Source of the DNA: Microbotryum violaceum
Lineage: Eukaryota
Direction: 5' to 3'
Length of the DNA stretch: 64,000 nt
Assembly: GCA_001244265.2 (NCBI GenBank)
Contig: CDLV01000017.1
Span: 62,001 to 126,000 of the forward strand
Both the position numbers and the translations under genes were made by a program. How positions within the stretch are numbered: the stretch's first letter is position 1; every line of letters begins with the position of its first letter. The notes below the pieces were generated by a model. It was not told the origin of the DNA. It did not search any database and was given only the letters and a program-made list of their open reading frames with translations. This document shows positions 11,716 through 22,749 of the stretch, piece by piece.

Positions 11716-12863
11716 CTAGCTCGTTCCGATGGCATTGTCTCCGTTCCTCAACTGTCCTATCGGCGGTTTGTTCTCTCGTTCAAGATCAGTATCTGTATCC
11801 GAGTCTTTTTGGTCCAGTTCATCGAATAAAACGGATCGTACACCCCTCCAAACTCTTTCCAATTGAGGCAATCTCGGCATCAACTCCTACTCGGGGAAGA
11901 AGATCCGATCCGCAGAAAGCTCAGCTCCGAACAGGCTTTTCAACACCGAGGCGCTTTCTCGCATGCTCGCATGCTCACCTCATAAGCGATAATCAACTTT
12001 CCATCGTCGGTATCGACTTTCGGTTTCTGAATCACGACCAAGACGTAGCGAATCCCCCATCCGTAAATGACCTCGTTGAGGGTGATGTCCTGGATGTCGC
12101 TCAAGGGGAGGAAGACATTCGAGCCCGATCGAAGGAGGGTGAAGGTCGATGATGAGAAGGGGAAGCGGATAATGAGACCTCTTGATGTGGTAAGTTGGAG
12201 ACCTAGGGATCCGACGGCTAGGAGGGATTCTGGGGGGGGGGGTGAAGGCGGGCGCACGGTCAGGGGTCATGTGGGGTCAGGAGATGTACACTGTCAATGA
12301 GGCTGGACGCTGATGACGAAGGCGCAACATTGTCATCTAGTGGATCCGGGTAATGATCCGAATGGATGAAAAGTCGCATGGGGTCTTTGTGTTGAGAGCT
12401 GGCACAGCAACTGAAGGCGTAGCCTCTGGCTTGATGGCAGCAAAGCTGATCACAAAGCCGACGTGTACCCTCGTCCTACCTGTACTGTCGACGCTCACAA
12501 TCCCTTCCGTGCATCTTCAAGCATCCTTCCATAGACGTTCCAGCTATAGGAGAAGTAGGAAACTGCGCTGGGGCGTGTACTCACCAGAAGTGACCGTGCC
12601 AGACTTGAGCTTAATCCAACCCCCTGCCAGCAACAACCCCATCCACGTAAAGTAGCCCTGTGTAACGTGTTCCGTATCTGGTCAAACTCTGCACCAACTT
12701 TTCAGAATGAAGCAGGACCACTCACAGACCGCAGCAACAGCCACGCGATCACGCTCCACGCGAGCGCGTCCGCCCACGGCGACCCGTTCGCGTCCGAGTG
12801 CACGATGTACGACTTTTGAATCAACGAATGGTCGACGATCTCCGACCGACTCGTTCGTCCCAT
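11716..12863 (-). CDS. GPI15: GPI-GlcNAc transferase subunit PIG-H/Gpi15
   Basis: Hand-spliced 4 exons: MGRTSRS...WSVIAWLLLRS|GYFTWMGLLLAGGWIKLKSGTVTS|ESLLAVGSLGLQLTT..LPLSDIQDITLNEVIYGW..|ELMPRLPQLERVWRGVRSVLF..*. Matches the PIG-H consensus (ESLL..GLQ, IQDI.INE, LLPR..LE.VWRG). Confidence 0.8.
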
Positions 12864-13556
12864 CGTGAGAAAGATGGCCGCGGGGACGGTAGGGAGGAAG
12901 GGCGGACCTGCGTCAGACTGGAAGTCGACAGTGTTTTAACCGCCGCCGCTCGGATAACTCAACGACGGTCTCCTCTGGAATCCTTTGTACGGTCATTATC
13001 CAAGCCTTTCTGGATCTCCGGTAGTCATCACATGCCATGCAAGGGGAGATTCTTCTATCAATCGTCATCTGCAACAGGTCCTATGGTCCCAAGCGGTGTA
13101 TGTGCGAGAACAGCCCTCCCAAGAATTAAAATCAACCGACGTCCTCGTAAGGCCAATGCAGCCCAGACTAGTACGCTCGAACAAAACACACCAAAAAAAC
13201 AAATACCCACACATACCCACTTTAAACATGAGACATCTTCTTGAGCCCCAAAGACACGACCATAACCTAAGCTGCCAACCCCCAGCAATTGCACCAAGCC
13301 TAACTGCAGTGGAACTGGAACTGGAATTCGAACGCCAGCGCTCTTCGCCTGAGCCCCGTATTATCGGATGGCAGATGCCGCGCAAACCCTGGGCCCAACT
13401 TCACAAACTTCAAACATGCAGTCTGTGACACGGAACATCTAAAGACGGAAACCGGACGCTCACATTATCCTTTCCAATGCTCAGGAAGCTATAACAATAC
13501 GCTGACCGGAAGCTTTGGACCTGGCACTGCAGAGCCGACCCACCCACTGCCACTAG

Positions 13557-13582
13557 CGTCACGTGATAAAACGTCACGTGAT
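13557..13582. promoter_or_regulatory. Tandem pair of CGTCACGTGAT (extended E-box, bHLH site)
   Basis: Two identical 11-mers 15 bp apart. TCACGTGA is the Cbf1/bHLH-type consensus. Target gene unknown. Confidence 0.35.
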
Positions 13583-14448
13583 GACCGCAAAAACAAATCA
13601 ACATTTTGAAGGCCTTGCTCAATGTCATAAGGAAAGCACTTCGGCCTGCCAAACTTAGATCGTTAAACACTCTATACTATCATGCACCGTCAGCATCAGC
13701 ATTCGCAGAATACACCTACAGGTAGGGCAACTACGAATTTCTCCCTATCATCGACGCGAGAAATTACTTCTCAGCGTGAATCGTGGACTGTGTGAGTGTG
13801 AGGCAGCCATACCCGAACTCAGAGAAGGAATGAGGTATCCTGAGCAGGTTTCGTCAAACAAGACTCCAAGGGACCAACGCCTCGACAGTAGTGTCGACAC
13901 TGTGACTCGGAGCAGCGCACGCGCCACCAAAAGAAAGGCTCGGGGCTCGGACTCCGCGTTTCGCCCATTCTCACGAACGACGATCTTCACCTCGGCAAAC
14001 CGACGAGCGAACCGACACTCATGCCTCATTACCCAGTGCTGCGGTTGCCCGATCAACATACAAACAAGGGACAAGGAAACAAAAGAGATCGTGCCACTGC
14101 CTGATATGCCGCGCTACGCTCCTCTAAGAGCCCTCTTCCTTCGCCATCTGTAGGCCCGCGCCTCCAATTCACTAATACTCATCAGAGCCGTGAGCCTCCA
14201 TTTCCTTTTCCTGTCTCTCTTTAGCTTTACCGTAGAACTCTCCTCTCTTTCCCTCCCCCTATCCATTCATTATCCCCGAACTCACACGGATCTACCTTCG
14301 ATAATCGCTCGACACCGCTTATCGACTTTCTTCACTCGACTTTCCTTTCGCGTCGAATACAATTCAAGGACTTGTACCGTCTTCTCTTGCCGTTCGATAG
14401 AGAGAGTACAACCTGGGCTTTCCTCTCGACTTGACACGATCTGGGAAG

Positions 14449-15061
14449 CCTACACCATCTCAGTGATTCCCAGCCCAACCAATCACCTTCGACCGAATCC
14501 TTACCCAACCCAACACAACACCAAAAACGAACGCAATGGCAACCTTTCAAATGCAGGACTTCACCGGGGCAGCCGCCCCCCAGCCGGATTGTCAGAGAAA
14601 CGTTCCAACCGCCGGTTGATCGTAACCGGCCGGGGCTTCCCTCCATGACTGCCACCTCGGCCAAGGGAACCCTCGAAAAGCATCTGCTTCACATACTCGA
14701 AATTTCTGGCGTTACCCGCTCGAGGCGACAACCATGTATATGTGCCGAGGCTGGCTTGGGCAAACGAGACCTTGTCCTTGTGTTGCCTCGAGCGGAAGTC
14801 TCGAGTATGTGGAGTAGGTGCTTTTCGAGCGTTTCCCTGGCCGAGGTGGGTGGCAGTCATGGAGGGAAGCCCCGGCCGGTTACGATCAACCGGCGGTTGG
14901 AACGTTCCTCTGACAATCCGGCTGGGGGGCGGCTGCCCCGGTGAAGTCCTGCATTTGGAAGGTTGCCATTGCGTTCGTTTTTGGTGTTGTGTTGGGTTGG
15001 GTAAGGATTCGGTCGGTCGAAGGTGATTGATTGGACTGGGGGATCAGTGAGATGGTGAAGG
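14449..15061. repeat. Long inverted repeat (foldback): ~280-bp arms, ~50-nt spacer
   Basis: 14449-14730 is the reverse complement of 14781-15061. The ~165-bp core (14491-14654 vs 14861-15013) has only 2 substitutions. No TSD seen. Confidence 0.97.
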
Positions 15062-16577
15062 AACCGAATGAACGGCGTGACTTACACTCGGACGAAGATG
15101 ACTCCGCCCTGTCGAGTTACACTCTCCGCTATGGACTCCAAGGCTCCAACAGCAAGTTGTTCGAGCTTGCGGAAGTGACCCAGAAGAAACCGGAGGCTAC
15201 CTCGTAGCGCAGCTCGTGTCTCGACAAACTGCTATCAGGCAACTCAAGGCTCTGCTGCATCCTCAAGAAACCACATCTTTGCAATGAGCCGTCACGATGG
15301 GAAGCAAGTCTAAGCTGGGAAAGGTAAGCTTTGGCTTTTTTCACGTCACACCCTACTAGGTGGTCGGTACGATCTCGTCACTTTCTCAGATTGCTGATGC
15401 AGAGACACTCTTCGTCGTAACAGAACGTCGTCAAGAACGACCAGGCCCGAACTGCGTCTGCGCTCGTGAGGCTCGAGGGAGCGGTCCGCTCGCTCCAGCG
15501 TCAAGACGGTTGATACCTTTGAGCAACCGCAGATCGGAAGGGATCACTCACTCTCCGATGTGTACAAAGACCAAAATGTCCGTACAATGTCCAGTTCCGA
15601 CCTTCAGGGCTTGAGTCTGCTGGCGCCGAATGGGAATGCTCGGTTTTCAACCCCAAGCATATCTGTGTCCCCACCGAGTGCGCAATCCTTAAATCGTTGC
15701 GGCAGCAAGTATTCTCTCCGTTTTGTACATCGCTTAACCGGATGCGACCATTTTCTGATCTGCTCTCATTTCGACCCTTTCCAGCCTGGGATTGAATTCC
15801 AAACTCGCGAGGTTGGAGCACCTTCAGCAGAGGAGGTATGACGCCCATTTGGTGTATGATCTGGGACCAGAAAGCTTCTTCTTACTTGCTCGTCTGTTTC
15901 AACTTTCTCTCTTCCTCAGGTGAATCAAGACGAGTCGCCTGTCGAGTGCACTGTTCCCTCACAAGCCGTCGCGTCGAAGCGCTCCAAGACCATAACCGGG
16001 ATACTTCAACACCGGGTCAATCGCAAGATGGTCGGCACACAAGCACGCCGCATCCCTGTTTCGATAGGACATAAACTTTCAAAGCATTGATGGACGCTCT
16101 ACGACCATCACTTGCAGGGGGAATCTTGAGGGTGTATGGGTACCGAGTAGTCCTTAATGGGGTGATACTTACGAAGGCGTGCTGGGCAGGATGAATGGAC
16201 GTGAAGATGAAGAAATAGAAGTACATGGCGAGTCACAGCTGTAGCACTAGAGCCCGAACCGCTGAAGGGACGGCTCTTTTTCAGAGCTTTCTCTCACGAG
16301 TAATTCCTTCGCTTTCGCTTCAGAGAACGATTAGAGTGTGACGTTGGAGGAAGATGAGAAGTAGTACTCGAATTGCCAGGAATAGCTACTCCGAGATCAA
16401 GAGCCAGCTCCAATCTTGAACCCCGTGTACGATTTTGGTTCCGCGGGTCTCGGTCGTGAGCGACGTTACGCGTTGATGAGAGTCTCATCGCAGCTGTATA
16501 AATCAGGGGTCATCGAGCGGCAAAGGTCAGCTCAATGCGCCTAGCGATCCTCAAAGCGGCGCGGAAGTCTGACTCAA

Positions 16578-17137
16578 CTACTTCTGGCTGTTCTTGTCGA
16601 TGCATTCGGTATACTTCGCCTGAATGGGACATTGATCGGGGGCCAAAGTACCATCAGTGAGGCACTTGCCCAAGCAAGCTGCCTTCGTCAAGCTAATTTA
16701 GGCGAGGTCGAGGCGAGGGCAGAGGTTATCCGGAGGTTAGTGAGGCTGTTCGTGTCAGGCCGAGACTCGCATGCAGGACAGGGCGAAACATACACGTCGG
16801 GTTGAGATGATTTCGCGGGTTGGCCCTTGCAGCGATCATTGCATGCTCTATAATCCAAGATGAGGTATCATTGGGGTGAGCGAAACATGGGGATGAGCTA
16901 TGCCCCGGCTAGTCAACCCGCACTCACGAACAGTTCTTTGCCACCAGCTTCTCGAGGTTTCTGTGCGGAGGATAAGGTGTCAGTGGGAAAGGGGGTAGGA
17001 CTTCAAGAAACGTGAAATCCCAAGGATACCGCTCACTGGGTTGGAAGAGGTGGGGCCATGGAGGGGTTTAAGGGATTCATGGCCGCGGTCGACACGACAA
17101 TGCCAAACACAGTCGCAACGAGGAGAGTCAACCGCAT
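16578..17137 (-). CDS. Small secreted cysteine-rich protein (~100 aa, candidate effector)
   Basis: Exons 17137-17037, 16960-16928, 16847-16794 and 16692-16578, all joined by phase-2 GT..AG introns: MRLTLLVATVFGIVVSTAA-MNPLNPSMAPPLPTQNLEKLVAKNCSACNDRCKGQPAKSSQPDVLTKAACLGKCLTDGTLAPDQCPIQAKYTECIDKNSQK*. Hydrophobic signal peptide and 7 Cys. Confidence 0.8.
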
Positions 17138-17335
17138 CGTACGTTTGACGCAGTGTAAGGACCGTGGGGGAGCTGGTGCAGATTAATAGTAAGATATCGT
17201 GGTGACAATTCCAGGTGCGGGAAGAAGCAGTGCGGAACGAAAGCGCATTGGAGGAGATCGCTATCGTACCACCCACAGCGACACGCCCCCTTGAGACAAG
17301 CTCCTGTGAAACGGGCGAGCGACGGACGCGCATCA

Positions 17336-17538
17336 TGTCAGAGTGTATATTGCTGTTTCATCCCACTTCTATTACCGATCACGACTAGTTACTAGTTGTT
17401 GATATTAGTCGCCTCGCGCGGCTATTGCTTGCCTCGCGCGCTCCTATTCTGCGCTTCTCTTCTTTCTCCAACTGTCTTTACTATCATCCTCGGCTCTCGT
17501 ACTAAACGTATCTCGTGCCTCGGCTTTAGGTTCTAATA
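17336..17538 (+). repeat. 5' LTR (203 bp, TG...TA)
   Basis: Near-identical to 21048-21230. Starts TGTCAGAG, ends TTCTAATA, and is immediately followed by the PBS. Confidence 0.95.
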
Positions 17539-17542
17539 GGTT

Positions 17543-20500
17543 ATGAGCCAACCTGCTCGGGGCGACTCCGATGATATTGGTGGCATGGCATCCACGCCTC
17601 CTCCACCATCGTCATCAACGTCGAACCAGCCCTTCGATGTCGCCCCCGCCACCGTCGTCACGCTCACCAAGGAGCAATACGACGCTCTCGTAAAGAACCA
17701 ACGCCCCGCACAAGCGCAGGAAGACGACGCAATCTCCATGCGTCACCTTCTCCCCCCCGTCAACCCTTCCGCCTTCCCCGATGACTCGAAGCTCACCGAG
17801 GATAACTACGTTGACTGGGACCTCGCAATGTCGACTACCTACGCTCGCGAGGTCTGCGCCTACCTTCGCAAGGGCCAGCACGACCCTTCTTGGCCACCCG
17901 CCTTCCACACGCGCTGGGAGGATTACGCGGCCCGAGCGCTTGCGTCCTCGCTCACGGTCACGACCAAAGCCACCATCGGGCCACTCATTCAAACGGGTGG
18001 CTCGGCGCACGACTGCTGGCTCGCGCTCGCCGCACGCTACGCGCCTAGCGATGCCCAGGCCTACTCAACGCTGATCAAAGACTACTTCATCCCAGCCCAG
18101 GTGCGATTCACACGCTTGTCACCACCAAGTCCCATGGGATCCCTTTACTTACCCTTCACCGTCGCTACGGTCATGCCTCTGTTCAGACACTTAAAAAACT
18201 GGCGGCCTCTGGCCAGGTGGAGGGTTTGGATTGGACCTATAGTGACCTCGAGTGTGTAGACTTCACCTGCAACGCGTGCCTCGCATCCAAAGCCCATCGT
18301 TTGCCGTTCCCCCCTTCGTCGTTCCACGCCTCGGAGCCGCTAGCACTGGTCCACTCGGATGTCTTGTCCTTTCCAGAGGAGTCGTTCAGCCACAAACGGT
18401 ACCTCGTCACATTCGTCGACGACTTCTCGAGGAAAACTTGGGTCTACCCCATCGGGCACAAGAGCGAGGTCCTTCCGACGTTTAAGGACTGACTTATGGA
18501 GATCGAAAACGAGACAGGTCGCAGGGTCAAAACGCTCCGCTCAGACAACGGGGGTGAATACGTCTCTACCGCCTTCAATGGTTTTTGCGTGGCACGCGGG
18601 ATCCGTCGCGAATTGACCATACCGTACACGCCCGAGCAAAACGGTCGAGCCGAGCGGCTCAACCGATCTATCGTGGAGGGCACCCTGGCTTTACTGATCG
18701 ACTCGGGACTCCCACGTACGTGCTGGAACAAGGCTGCCATGTGTTACATCCACACCAAGAACCTTTCGCCTCATGCGGCTCTCAAGGGAGGAGTACCAAA
18801 TTGTCGCTGGTCAGGCCCCCCCCCCGACCGTGGGAGCGCTTCGAGCATTTGGTTGTCGCGCCTGGGCCACCGTGCCGGCTCATCGTCGGGACAAACTCGA
18901 CCCGAAAGGGATTCCGCTGGTCTTTGTGGGTTGCGATCGACACGCGAAAGCCTGGCGCCTTCTTGATCCCTCCTCGATGCGCGTGAGTTTGAGCCGGAAT
19001 GTGACGTTCCTCGAAACCGAGTTCCCCTTCGTTGCCGTTCCCGCCCGCGTCACACCGCCTTCCGTTCCGGGTTTCTATCCCCGTCCTCCACCTGCCGACG
19101 CTCCGGCAACGCCGTTACCTCCCGTGCTCGTCGAACCCACCCAGCCGCCTTCGCTCGACGACGATGCCACTTCTTCGATCCACCTGCCGCAGCGTCCTCC
19201 GGAACCAGCACCACCGGAACCAACTCCACTCGCCAAAGTCAAGCCCACTTGGGAGTACGGCGATGTTGCCAAGGTTGGTCTCGATCCAGGGAAGTACGGT
19301 GAAATCGATGCTCGGAACATCATCGCTGGCCCCCGGACTCGCCGCCAACTGGTTCCCACCCTCATCACGCGGGAAGACCTTGTTGGCGGACCTGATGGAC
19401 CCACTCCCGCCTTCCAGGGCATGCTCCGTGCCTTCGCATCCACCAAAGCCGGCTTTGCGGAGCACGACTTATCCGTTGTCCGAGATCCAGCCAATTGGGG
19501 CGATGTCATCCGATCGGGACAACAGGACACGTGGGGTGGCCCGGCACACGACGAATTCGATTCACTTCTCAACGAATACGAGGTGTTTGAAGTCATTGAC
19601 TCCTGTGAGCTCCCCGTGGGTGAGATCCTCTTACGGTCGGGCTGGGTGTTCCGAACTAAACACAACCAGCACGGGGACATCATCGATCGCAAGGCTCGTC
19701 TCGTCGCCCACGGTTGTGCCCAACGCCCTGGCATCGACTTCGAGCAGAACTATGCCCCCGTCGTCAAGTTCACGTCCATTCGGGCTCTCATTGCCCTCGC
19801 CGCGGCCAACGGCTACCATGTCCATCAAGCCGACGTCAACAAAGCGTACCTCCACGGCAAACTTGACAAGCCTCTCTACATGCGCGTTCCACAAGGCATC
19901 GACATGCCTGGCAAGATCCTCAGGCTGTCCAAATCCATCTACGGACTTCGCCAAGCGGGCACCATCTGGAACGCGGAGATTGACTCGACTTTGCGCTCCC
20001 TCGGATACGTGCCCACCCGATCGGACATCTGCATCTACCGCCGCAAACACGACGGGCACTCTCATTACATCGCCTTGTACGTTGACGACTTGCTGTTGGT
20101 TGGGCCCTCTACCGCCGAGATCGACAGGGTTCTCGACGCGTTGGAACTCGCATATGGTATCAAACGTCTCAGGCCTGCCGAATACATCCTCGGCATCCAA
20201 GTCAAACGCGGGCACAACGGGTCCATCACACTTTCCCAAGAGCGCTACCTTCGAGATATCTTGGCCAGGTTCCAATTCGCCGATGCCAAGCCGGCGGGCG
20301 TCCCCATGCAACCCGGTGTCGTCCTCGATTTCGAAAACTCGTCTGCTACCCCTGAGGATCGCACTCGCTACTTGCAGGCCATTGGTTCGTTGATGTACGC
20401 CGCGGTTGGCACTCGTCCGGACCTCGCTTTCGTGGTCAGCTACCTCGCGCGCTTCTCGCAGCAACCCGGCCCGGAGCATTGGACAGCCATCAAGCACGTC

Positions 20501-21034
20501 CTCCGCTACATCAAAGGCACGCTGGACTTGGGGCTCACCTACCGCAAGACCAACCAACCGCTCCATGGCTACTCGGATGCAAACTGGGGAGCCTGCCTGA
20601 CAACCTCGCGATCGACCATGGGCTACGCATTCATCTTGTCCGGAGCCGCCATTGCTTGGTGTTCCAAACGGGAGCACAGGGTCGCCAAGTCTACTACCGA
20701 CGCGGAATACCTCTCTCTTTCGTACGCTAGCGGGGACGCCATTCACCTGAGCGAACTCCTGAGCGAACTCGGCGCTCCGGTTCCCGGTCCAGTCGTGCTC
20801 TATGGTGACATCCAAGGTTCGCTTGCTCTGGCACAACACCCGACCAACCATCAGGGATCTCGTCACGTTCGCATCTCGGAACACTACGTCCGCGAGAGGG
20901 TTGCTGAGAAAGAGATCGAGGTCCGCTACATTGCCACTGGCGACATGTTTGCCGACATCTTCACCAAGGCCTTGGGTCCCAAGCCGTTCATCTTCCATCG
21001 GACAAATTTGGGCTTACGAGGTGCAGTGGTATGA
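17543..21034 (+). pseudogene. Disrupted copia gag-pol
   Basis: Gag N-terminus (17543-~18088) is fused out of frame to the pre-integrase region (HRRYGH..CNAC). Integrase core HSDV/SDNGGE/NGRAER carries a TGA at 18490-18492. Frameshift at the C10 run near 18816. RT (KARLVA, YVDD) and RNase H (YSDANW, DIFTKAL) lie in ORF 18773-21034. No protease or Zn-knuckle motif seen. Confidence 0.92.
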
Positions 21035-21047
21035 CAGCACGGGGGGG

Positions 21048-21230
21048 TGTCAGAGTGTATATTGCTGTTTCATCCCACTTCTATTACCGATCATGATTAG
21101 TTACTAGTTGTTGATATTAGTCGCCTCGCGCGCTCCTATTCTGCGCTTCTCTTCTTTCTCCAACTGTCTTTACTATCATCCTCGGCTCTCGTACTAAACG
21201 TATCTCGTGCCTCGGCTTTAGGTTCTAATA
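21048..21230 (+). repeat. 3' LTR (183 bp)
   Basis: Same sequence as the 5' LTR except two C>T changes and a 20-bp deletion between GCCTCGCGCG direct repeats. Confidence 0.95.
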
Positions 21231-22749
21231 CATCACCCCTCACCGCGTCACCACTCACCACCGTGACGTCCCGGCGGGTGAAGGCGGACGATGGGCGAGG
21301 CACGGACGCGTCCTGCGTATCAGCGACTCGGATCGCGCACTTTTATGTTGATCTTCAACATGTGGAGTCATCAGTCTGCTACCAGTGAGAAAGAAGGGGG
21401 GAAAAGTGCCAATTTCCTGGCCAGATCACTATACTAATCGCCGCCTCAGAAGTCATCAGACGGTGACTCCGTCACGGGCCGGCCGGGCGCACTCAACACA
21501 CTCGGCCCGGGTCCCGAGGCCCATGATCACCGCGCCAAAAGGCGAGCGATGCCGAGCAACTTCTCACGCCAGTGCTGGCTGTATAGAATATCTTGTCATT
21601 TAACTGACCAGCACTTGGTCAGGGAACTTCAAAATTTCGACTTAGTGCAGCACTTGTCACTGTAGAATACTAGTAGGAAGGGTACTACAATCTAATCGGT
21701 TTCTCGGCACCAACCTCATGATAAGATAATGCAGCGCACTCTATGGCTTGGTGCTTGCAGTTGGGTCATACAGATGACGAGGGTGGTTTTGGCGTGACAG
21801 CCTCGGCCGCAGGTGTGGAATTTGATGGGCAGACCCTTGTCGTGTGAAGTTGTTAAGCTGAGGTCAACGAAATCACGAGTTCGGCGCTGGTGAACCGCAG
21901 CGCAGTGACCGCAGAGAGAGAAAAGTGCGTAGCTGTCCTTATGGGAGTGATGATGTGTAAGGAGAGAGAGACGGATAGAAAGAAGGAAACTTGAAGCACG
22001 AGGTGGTGTGTGATCGAAGGCATGTGGCCTGTACATGTGCTCGGCTTCGAGTCCCCGACCGAGGATCAGACGCGACCATCGCCTGCGTCGCAGGTATCGT
22101 TTAGCCGCTCGGAGCGGGCACGGCGCTTGTGAGAGGCCGAGTTCAGGAGTCATTTCGGTTGTAGCGAGGCCGACTTCCGGAGTCATCTCAAACTGTCAAG
22201 GTTAACACCGGTTCTGGCAAGGTCAAACACCGGTTTCCGCAGACTTCTCATCGATAAAGCGCTTCCGGGTAAACTCAGTACTTCGAGGGCATAAGGATCA
22301 ATTATCAACGACAAGGCATGCGGCATTCCTGTTCTCAGGTAGATGTGCTCAGCGCTTTAGGGCCGAGTTCGATGACCAGAAGGGTTGAGTAACACCTAGG
22401 ACAAGAAATCAGGGATATTGATACATCGCAGAGTCATTCCCTGTACAAGTGGCAGATGCGGCCCGGGGTGTGCAGTAGAGAGGGTTACCCCATTTCAGTT
22501 GGCGCTAATCTGCGCGCAGTCAGGGTGACTCTTGACTGGGCGCTCACCTCTGGGCCACAGCGTTTTCACATCGGACGAATGCTCTGTTTTTGAGTGAACA
22601 TCGAGCGTGACGTCAGCTCCCCATCGGGGGGCATTTTGGGATCGTGGTCGGCCACTTGGCTCGCTCTGCCCGTGACGATTCGCTAAGCTCAACACGGCCC
22701 CTGGGGATATTCTTAGATAAGAGTGGCAAGCCAAAATTCTACATCATGT

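What the first reader, a model, noticed from the sequence alone, without database searches (positions are those of the whole stretch)
14449..15061. ~610-bp foldback locus: candidate endogenous hairpin-RNA (siRNA/milRNA) gene in an effector island
Seen: two ~280-bp inverted arms around a 50-nt spacer. The ~165-bp core is near-perfect (2 substitutions) and the arms are more diverged at both ends. Several loop-proximal differences (e.g. CATCTGCTTCAC vs GTGGAGTAGGTG) would be G-U pairs on a + strand transcript, while a few elsewhere are A-C. There is no TSD and no transposase, and a long pyrimidine-rich leader-like tract (about 14190-14400) precedes the left arm. Established: long inverted-duplication hairpins are Dicer substrates and are the inverted-duplication route to new small-RNA genes. 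Inference: a transcript through this locus would form ~270 bp of dsRNA, possibly yielding small RNAs against its own gene family or host targets.
Basis: partly seen in the sequence, partly recalled or inferred. Interest (0 to 1): 0.8.

Follow-up and report, generated by a model that had tools for sequence, protein, structure and literature searches.

The report
Folded-back LINE relic, partly transcribed
The hairpin is real, but it is the front end of a broken LINE retrotransposon doubled back on itself in an anther-smut fungus; one arm lies in a spliced non-coding RNA, yet nothing shows that the whole hairpin is transcribed, makes small RNAs or silences anything.

Summary
The inverted repeat is real: 247 of 261 aligned bases match, and contigs from 2 of 4 runs laid cross its centre unchanged. 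The arms are not effector sequence. They are the 5' leader end and first ~64 codons of ORF1 of a decayed LINE family in Microbotryum. The 'pyrimidine leader' is a solo LTR (14149-14454, 5-bp target duplication). The right arm keeps the empty site, so the fold-back most likely predates the LTR. Outside a 167-bp core the arms differ about as much as from paralogues; the core (165/167) looks recently homogenised. G-U bias is absent (7:5). One run holds a three-intron, + strand RNA with no long ORF that contains the right arm and continues through a decayed gene; its start is unknown. Dicer, Argonaute and RdRP domains are encoded, but 0 of 589 hairpin 21-mers match another copy perfectly. Verdict: a Mu-killer-like architecture, most likely a rearrangement scar with at most incidental, self-directed siRNAs. 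Earlier scan notes report similar transposon fold-backs elsewhere in this genome, none at this locus. Interest 0.33.

The parts
12975..14148 (+). 5' leader region of a decayed LINE (non-LTR retrotransposon) copy
   Evidence: 70% identical over about 1.2 kb to the 5' part of the 7.3-kb copy on C10. A contig of RNA-type run X19 covers 13852-14178 with no difference, strand unknown.
14144..14148 (+). left target-site duplication (CCATC) of the solo LTR
   Evidence: sequence; flank printout
   Evidence: 7 other matches in the genome, 5 near full length at 83-90%. 5-bp duplications at 3 independent sites among 6 full-length copies (this one, L007=L008, L011); a purine tract lies 5' of 2 copies and a shared downstream sequence 3' of 3 copies.
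14455..14459 (+). right target-site duplication (CCATC), start of the left arm
   Evidence: sequence
14455..14727 (+). left arm: end of LINE leader plus about 64 codons of ORF1 (ATG at 14536), frameshifted
   Evidence: alignment to C12, C10a and C10b copies; tblastn with ORF1 homologue P0031
14490..14656 (+). homogenised core of the left arm (partner 14849-15015)
   Evidence: 165/167 identical between arms versus 80-86% to paralogues; flanks 30/34 and 52/60
14728..14784 (.). centre of the hairpin: about 15 nt of unassigned sequence, then 14743-14784 = the next stretch of ORF1 in inverted orientation
   Evidence: the right arm aligns to the family from reference position 1033 back to 720 while the left arm stops at 991
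14785..15063 (-). right arm: inverted copy of the LINE leader end and ORF1 start; carries the empty (pre-LTR) site and two 4-bp tandem duplications at the core edges
   Evidence: 1912-nt contig in run X19 with three joints at GT-AG, GC-AG and GT-AG introns, absent from the 3 other runs laid; longest ATG ORF 55 aa
15463..16145 (+). decayed paralogue of a lineage-specific gene (intact-looking relative on C15 resembles MVLG_03441), with in-frame stops
   Evidence: tblastx 34% over 85 aa and 52% over 23 aa; no Pfam family

Best explanation
It is a rearrangement scar in a dead LINE. (1) A LINE copy was cut off about 64 codons into ORF1, and about 320 nt of its own front end was copied back in reverse. 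The inverted centre fits a polymerase template switch (structure shown, mechanism inferred). (2) Later an LTR retrotransposon inserted at the base of the left arm and was reduced to a solo LTR (insertion shown; order inferred from the empty site in the right arm). (3) Much later a 167-bp tract of one arm was overwritten from the other by template switching or gene conversion, which explains the near-perfect core without selection on RNA pairing (pattern shown, mechanism inferred). (4) RNA polymerase II now transcribes at least the right arm on the + strand, antisense to the LINE, and continues into a decayed three-intron gene (shown in one run). If some transcripts start in the LINE leader or solo LTR, they fold into about 260 bp of duplex that Dicer could cut. 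Those siRNAs would match this locus perfectly and the surviving, already broken LINE copies only with mismatches, so the effect would be mainly local and incidental (inferred).
For: Arms are LINE 5' sequence: ORF1 continues in the C12 copy and, in the C9 copy, runs on into an endonuclease frame in the same orientation. Exo_endo_phos E=8e-5 (below the curated cut-off) and RNase_H E=4e-7 (above it) in the C10a copy. 33 of 55 matches to that copy reach its last ~100 nt, while only 5 loci hold the first 1.4 kb. The divergence pattern is non-uniform: 2 of 20000 permutations give so long a near-clean run. Outside the core the arms are 30/34 and 51/61 identical to each other versus 28-29/34 and 77-83% to paralogues. 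Both core edges coincide with 4-bp duplications in the right arm. No G-U bias (p=0.77). 0 of 589 21-mers match any of three other 5'-bearing copies perfectly; 2-24 match with 1 mismatch or fewer. A second copy of the family (C10b) also ends in a fold-back, 82 of 96 columns identical. Template switching is reported to homogenise arms and invert spacers, for short repeats (PMC8604942, abstract).
Against: The locus is not silent: the right arm is in a spliced RNA, and a solo LTR and LINE leader point into the left arm. RNAi domains are present. 72-98 of 589 21-mers match other copies with 2 mismatches or fewer and 159-228 with 3 or fewer, and the C10b copy is held in the same RNA-type run, so potential targets exist. 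An old hairpin that still has a near-perfect core could be under selection; conversion and selection are not exclusive. The reverse-transcriptase domain was recognised only by eye (recalled motifs); Pfam and PDB searches of the fragments found nothing.
Confidence: 0.58

Rival explanations
1. Functional Mu-killer-like locus: the solo LTR or LINE promoter drives a transcript through both arms, Dicer makes siRNAs, and these silence (or once helped extinguish) the LINE family in trans; the core is kept near-perfect because it is useful.
For: Architecture matches Mu killer: a partial inverted duplication of a transposon's front end (PMC3440606, abstract and Introduction). Promoter-bearing elements lie upstream in sense orientation. 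The right arm is in a + strand RNA and a contig of the same run covers 13852-14178. RNAi domains are present and reported expressed in M. lychnidis-dioicae (PMC4469406, passages). The larger LINE copies examined (C10a, C12, C9, C17) have broken frames.
Against: No perfect 21-mer against the 3 other 5'-bearing copies. No G-U bias. The core is explained by DNA-level copying, since it also carries frameshifting indels shared by both arms. No intact target element was found among the copies examined (only 40 of 52 candidates were scored).
Confidence: 0.17
2. No hairpin RNA at all: the RNA starts inside the inverted ORF1 fragment from a LINE antisense promoter (or the decayed gene's own promoter) and runs out through the leader into the flank, as mouse L1 antisense fusion transcripts do. 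Any effect on LINEs would be by antisense pairing in trans. This concerns how the RNA starts and is compatible with the scar origin.
For: The RNA is + strand by its three canonical introns and so is antisense to LINE ORF1 over its first ~215 nt. An antisense promoter in mouse L1 ORF1 yields fusion transcripts and limits retrotransposition largely without Dicer (PMC3985663, abstract).
Against: Contigs cannot show a start site, and only one RNA-type run was laid. No antisense promoter is known to me for this family. A contig of the same run covers the upstream leader and LTR edge.
Confidence: 0.3
3. Different origin: two independent LINE copies inserted in opposite orientation and were fused by a deletion, then partly homogenised.
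For: Outside the core the arms are hardly closer to each other than to paralogues; shared derived sites number 1 of 34 and 1 of 53 columns.
Against: Both copies break within about 40 nt of the same ORF1 position. Only 5 loci in the genome keep this 5' region, so two side by side is unlikely. The C10b copy shows a comparable single-element fold-back.
Confidence: 0.1
4. One reading: a dedicated hairpin/milRNA gene aimed at an effector family or at host-plant transcripts.
For: A long stable duplex; partial transcription; short Cys-rich frames of unknown nature lie 9-11 kb away.
Against: The arms are LINE sequence and match nothing else in the 64-kb window. Flanking genes by Pfam are Hid1, AMP-binding, RabGAP-TBC, Copia pol, Ctf4/WD40 and a ubiquitin hydrolase. 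TE-overlapping fungal hairpins are flagged for scrutiny (PMC9757828, passages).
Confidence: 0.03
5. MITE or fold-back DNA transposon, or assembly artefact.
For: Long terminal-looking inverted repeats.
Against: The 3 other arm matches are single-armed for this segment and belong to a LINE. Contigs of two studies cross the centre unchanged.
Confidence: 0.02

Closest known systems
Mu killer (Muk) of maize (PMC3440606: abstract and Introduction read; PMC11624286: passages)
   Same: [quoted passage not shown]
   Different: Derived from a LINE, not a DNA transposon. About 0.6 kb rather than about 4 kb. Old and 15-24% diverged from surviving copies, with no intact target found. Hairpin transcript, siRNAs and trans-silencing are unshown.
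Template-switch (quasi-palindrome) homogenisation of inverted repeats (PMC8604942, abstract)
   Same: Arm homogenisation and an inverted spacer arising without selection.
   Different: That study concerns short repeats in yeast genes; a 167-bp tract here could equally be recombinational gene conversion.
Mouse L1 ORF1 antisense-promoter fusion transcripts (PMC3985663, abstract)
   Same: RNA antisense to LINE ORF1 and leader that runs on into flanking DNA.
   Different: Start site and promoter are not mapped here, and the LINE fragment is part of a fold-back.
Fungal milRNA/hairpin small-RNA loci (PMC9757828, passages)
   Same: Stem-loop potential in an RNAi-encoding fungus.
   Different: Much longer stem, TE-derived, and no small-RNA evidence.

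Membership tests
Mu-killer-type silencer locus | partial inverted duplication of a transposon's 5' part | tested here: met
Mu-killer-type silencer locus | transcript that contains both arms | tested here: inconclusive
   the right arm is in a spliced + strand RNA; contigs cannot show its start
Mu-killer-type silencer locus | siRNA production from the stem | not testable with these tools
   no small-RNA data reachable; RNAi domains present
Mu-killer-type silencer locus | near-identical, intact target elements elsewhere | tested here: not met
   0 of 589 perfect 21-mers in 3 copies; frames broken in the copies examined; counts are lower bounds
Mu-killer-type silencer locus | dominant silencing in trans | not testable with these tools
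   needs genetics
fungal milRNA / hairpin-RNA gene | discrete Dicer-cut duplex from an expressed stem-loop | not testable with these tools
   needs small-RNA-seq
fungal milRNA / hairpin-RNA gene | one-strand preference for pairing (G-U over A-C) as a sign of selection on RNA structure (criterion recalled) | tested here: not met
   7 versus 5, p=0.77; low power with 12 sites
MITE / fold-back DNA transposon | dispersed two-armed copies with target duplications at the arm ends | tested here: not met
   3 other arm matches are single-armed for this segment; the only duplication found belongs to the LTR
LINE (source of the arms) | AP-type endonuclease after ORF1 | tested here: met
   Exo_endo_phos E=8e-5 and 3e-4, both under the curated cut-off
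LINE (source of the arms) | reverse transcriptase domain | tested here: inconclusive
   no Pfam or PDB hit on the fragments; motifs seen by eye only; RNase H hit downstream
LINE (source of the arms) | many 5'-truncated copies sharing the 3' end | tested here: met
   33 of 55 matches reach the last ~100 nt; 5 loci hold the first 1.4 kb
solo LTR (14149-14454) | TG...CA ends, 5-bp target duplication, dispersed copies | tested here: met
solo LTR (14149-14454) | parent element with gag-pol between two such LTRs | tested here: inconclusive
   shared internal-like flanks at L009, L010, L012, L013; no full element was traced

The most novel reading that the evidence does not exclude
A natural 'LINE killer' in a basidiomycete. 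An old fold-back of the LINE front end was given a promoter by a solo LTR, had its stem refreshed by concerted evolution, and is expressed as a spliced hairpin RNA whose siRNAs helped extinguish the family. With the sister fold-back on C10 (whose RNA contig would cover both arms if unspliced) and the other transposon-front fold-backs noted in this genome, it would be one of a genome-wide set of self-made silencer loci.
Probability: 0.15. Interest if true: 0.68.

Novelty: new member of a known kind. Interest (0 to 1): 0.33.

Why it matters
As a scar it is ordinary, though it is a clean example of an old inverted repeat with a recently homogenised core, which can be mistaken for selection on RNA structure. 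If the full hairpin is transcribed and diced, it would be a natural Mu-killer analogue for a LINE in a fungus and would show how Microbotryum's RNAi pathway acquires transposon-specific triggers. Having a partly expressed locus and an expressed sister copy makes that directly testable with one small-RNA library and 5' RACE. My searches listed no paper on hairpin-derived small RNAs in Microbotryum; the library lacks most subscription journals.

Tried and rejected
Rfam over 12000-17000: 1 match, E=0.43, far below its gathering score. Run search: no RNA holder listed by record; X19 was unlabelled and I judged it RNA from its spliced joints. In X19 no contig was laid on 14512-14725 and the spliced contig stops at 14847, next to the inner edge of the core; with one run and contigs only, this cover gap is not used as evidence on the start site. 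Contig depths were not used to rank expression. Run X20, guessed to be RNA, covers introns unspliced and was treated as DNA-like. Only 4 of 24 listed runs could be laid; 56 records and 37 difference rows were not shown. Searches for what the decayed downstream gene encodes gave nothing usable: Pfam, Atlas (best 0.76), and 3 representative hits that proved unrelated repeat or other proteins. A zinc-finger-like C/H spacing is my impression only. The upstream minus-strand gene looks PIG-H-like by recall, but Pfam gave no hit. The bacterial promoter scan is irrelevant to a fungus and was ignored. No paper names MVLG_05773. Earlier-findings look-ups by sequence, relatives, words and near place returned nothing. 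Host transcriptomes and genomes of sister species could not be searched. No genome-wide count of fold-backs could be made because the genome is not available as a file. Secretion signals of the short Cys-rich frames at 23.7-25.8 kb were not tested. No paper supplements were opened; those of PMC4469406 may bear on TE annotation and expression.

Full report
1. Observation. The inverted repeat is the only long one in the 64-kb window. A global alignment of 14456-14727 against 14785-15054 gives 247 of 261 identical columns, with 14 substitutions and 4 internal indels. The core 14490-14656 has 2 differences in 167; the outer part has 4 in 34 and the inner part 8 in 60. The region folds to -543 kcal/mol on + and -531 on -, and 0 of 20 shuffles come near on either strand. 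The claimed G-U preference does not hold: 7 G-U, 5 A-C and 2 other, p=0.77. Contigs from runs X4 and X17 (different studies; 2 of 4 runs laid) cover 14627-14878, both inner arms and the centre, with no difference. X4, X17 and X20 join the upstream LTR to the left arm, and X4 joins the right arm to the flank; none spans the whole locus. An assembly artefact is therefore very unlikely.

2. Organism and context. A window protein is 96% identical to a Microbotryum saponariae protein and 87% to one of M. intermedium; the genome is 33.2 Mb in 20 contigs. Pfam names the neighbours as Hid1, AMP-binding, RabGAP-TBC, a Copia element (LTRs 181/183 identical), Ctf4/WD40 and a ubiquitin hydrolase. The stretch 21-26 kb holds dispersed repeats and short Cys-rich frames that I did not test for secretion. 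The arms match nothing else in the window, so they are not derived from a local effector family.

3. The arms are LINE sequence. The arm matches 3 other loci at 76-85%, and the homology extends 1.2 kb upstream to 12975. One locus is a 7.3-kb element on C10 with Exo_endo_phos (E=8e-5, under the cut-off) and RNase_H (E=4e-7) frames. It finds 55 matches, 33 of which (itself included) reach its last ~100 nt, while only 5 loci hold part of the first 1.4 kb; 40 of 52 candidates were scored. This is the 5'-truncation profile of a LINE. The ATG at 14536 corresponds to the start of a 328-codon frame in the C12 copy, annotated as hypothetical protein MVLG_05773 in M. lychnidis-dioicae. In the C9 copy the end of that frame is followed in the same orientation by further ORF1-like sequence and the endonuclease frame. 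The reverse transcriptase was recognised only from recalled motifs; Pfam and PDB gave no hit on the fragments. Each arm is thus about 80 nt of leader plus about 64 codons of ORF1. The left arm stops at family position 991, while the right arm runs from 1033 back to 720, so most of the 'spacer' is the next piece of ORF1, inverted. An inverted repeat with an inverted spacer is what a template switch produces (geometry recalled; arm homogenisation and spacer inversion in PMC8604942, abstract). No LINE 3' part follows: 15062-17330 is single-copy.

4. The 'leader' is a solo LTR. 14149-14454 has TG...CA ends between two CCATC. It has 7 other matches, with 5-bp duplications at two further independent sites (L007=L008, L011) and internal-like flanks at others, which orient it on +. 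It is 92-93% identical to its closest relatives over aligned columns. The right arm continues past a single CCATC into sequence matching 14136-14143, so it preserves the empty site and the fold-back most likely predates the LTR.

5. Old repeat, young core. Outside the core the arms are 30/34 and 51/61 identical to each other, against 28-29/34 and 77-83% to paralogues. Inside it they are 165/167 identical to each other and 80-86% to paralogues. A run this clean arose in 2 of 20000 permutations (the 19 events include one end gap). Both core edges fall on 4-bp tandem duplications in the right arm, and both arms share frameshifting indels inside the core. The simplest reading is one recent copying event between the arms, or conversion confined by those indels; selection alone would need matched changes on both arms at many sites. 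This is inference.

6. Transcription. Run X19 carried no label, but one 1912-nt contig lies on 14847-15321 and 15422-15704 with no difference and shows three joints that the other 3 runs lack. The joints fall on canonical introns 15324-15423 (GT-AG), 15705-15784 (GC-AG) and 15836-15919 (GT-AG), which fixes the strand as +. The RNA therefore contains the right-arm core and outer arm, antisense to the LINE, and has no ATG frame over 55 aa. Its downstream exons are a decayed paralogue of a gene elsewhere on C15 (34% over 85 aa, with stops) that resembles MVLG_03441 and has no Pfam family. The same run has a contig on 13852-14178 (leader to LTR edge, strand unknown) and an 804-nt contig whose differences identify it as the C10b copy. 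Where the spliced RNA starts cannot be read from contigs. This rests on one run.

7. Silencing potential. Piwi (2 loci), Dicer_dimer (1) and RdRP (1 locus) are present, matching the set reported as expressed in M. lychnidis-dioicae (PMC4469406, passages). Of 589 21-mers from the hairpin, 0 match any of the three other 5'-bearing copies perfectly, 2-24 with one mismatch or fewer, 72-98 with two and 159-228 with three. The larger copies examined have broken frames. siRNAs, if made, would act best on the locus itself.

8. Comparison. It is built like maize Mu killer (PMC3440606, abstract and Introduction; PMC11624286, passages), but one defining feature (a near-identical intact target) was not met and three are open, so I do not file it as a member. 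The partial RNA is reminiscent of mouse L1 ORF1 antisense fusion transcripts (PMC3985663, abstract). Fungal hairpin loci that overlap TEs are flagged for scrutiny (PMC9757828, passages). RIP-like TpCpG mutation is described for the genus (PMC5381629, passages); I did not test for it. A second member of this LINE family ends in its own fold-back (82/96 columns, 4 G-U versus 3 A-C). Unchecked scan notes list at least seven more transposon fold-backs in this genome. That makes such structures look like a common product of repair here; it is a lead, not evidence.

9. Verdict. A real feature, a new member of a known kind (TE-derived inverted duplication), most likely a scar with incidental hairpin potential (0.58). 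A functional LINE-silencing locus remains possible (about 0.15-0.17). An effector- or host-directed small-RNA gene is unlikely (0.03). Interest 0.33.

Noticed in passing
L004:1118-1940 (G000:C10, about 1,250,015-1,250,837): A second 5' fragment of the same LINE family ends in its own fold-back (arms about 100 nt, 82/96 identical, sense-oriented loop). An 804-nt contig of RNA-type run X19 starts at L004:1922 and, if unspliced, would end at about 1119, covering both arms; only its first 320 nt could be checked.
   Followed up: partly
L023:5900-9954 and L024:2584-5798 (G000:C12): LINE copy whose 5' part (leader plus 328 ORF1 codons) is inverted relative to the rest, as expected from twin priming (mechanism recalled); its ORF1 piece is annotated as a hypothetical gene in M. 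lychnidis-dioicae.
   Followed up: partly
window 15065-17022: Transcribed, spliced, decayed paralogue of a Microbotryum-specific gene family (MVLG_03441-like; three clusters in M. saponariae) with a zinc-finger-like C/H spacing and no Pfam match; one intron is GC-AG.
   Followed up: partly
window 17336-21230 and 32810-32894: Young Copia element (LTRs 181/183 identical) with broken gag-integrase frames, plus an older related LTR fragment at 32.8 kb.
   Followed up: no
L009:1812-1860 and L013: Just 3' of the LTR family's end lies a short inverted copy of the LTR's own last bases, and no tRNA-like primer site was evident; may indicate self-priming.
   Followed up: no
window 23690-24340 and 25180-25790 (minus strand): Short cysteine-rich frames split by probable introns, possibly small secreted proteins; no Pfam hit of note.
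   Followed up: no
L007 and L008 (G000:C2 and C1): Two 3.3-kb loci are 99.9% identical across both flanks of the solo LTR, so the two largest contigs share a duplicated or homologous segment.
   Followed up: no
window 14509-14730: Run X20 (a different organism label) carries the left arm with 2 substitutions and 14 gap letters, hinting at polymorphism near the hairpin centre; low depth, single contig.
   Followed up: no
window 22135-22325 and 25550-26290: Two further dispersed repeat families with many diverged copies (65-90%).
   Followed up: no
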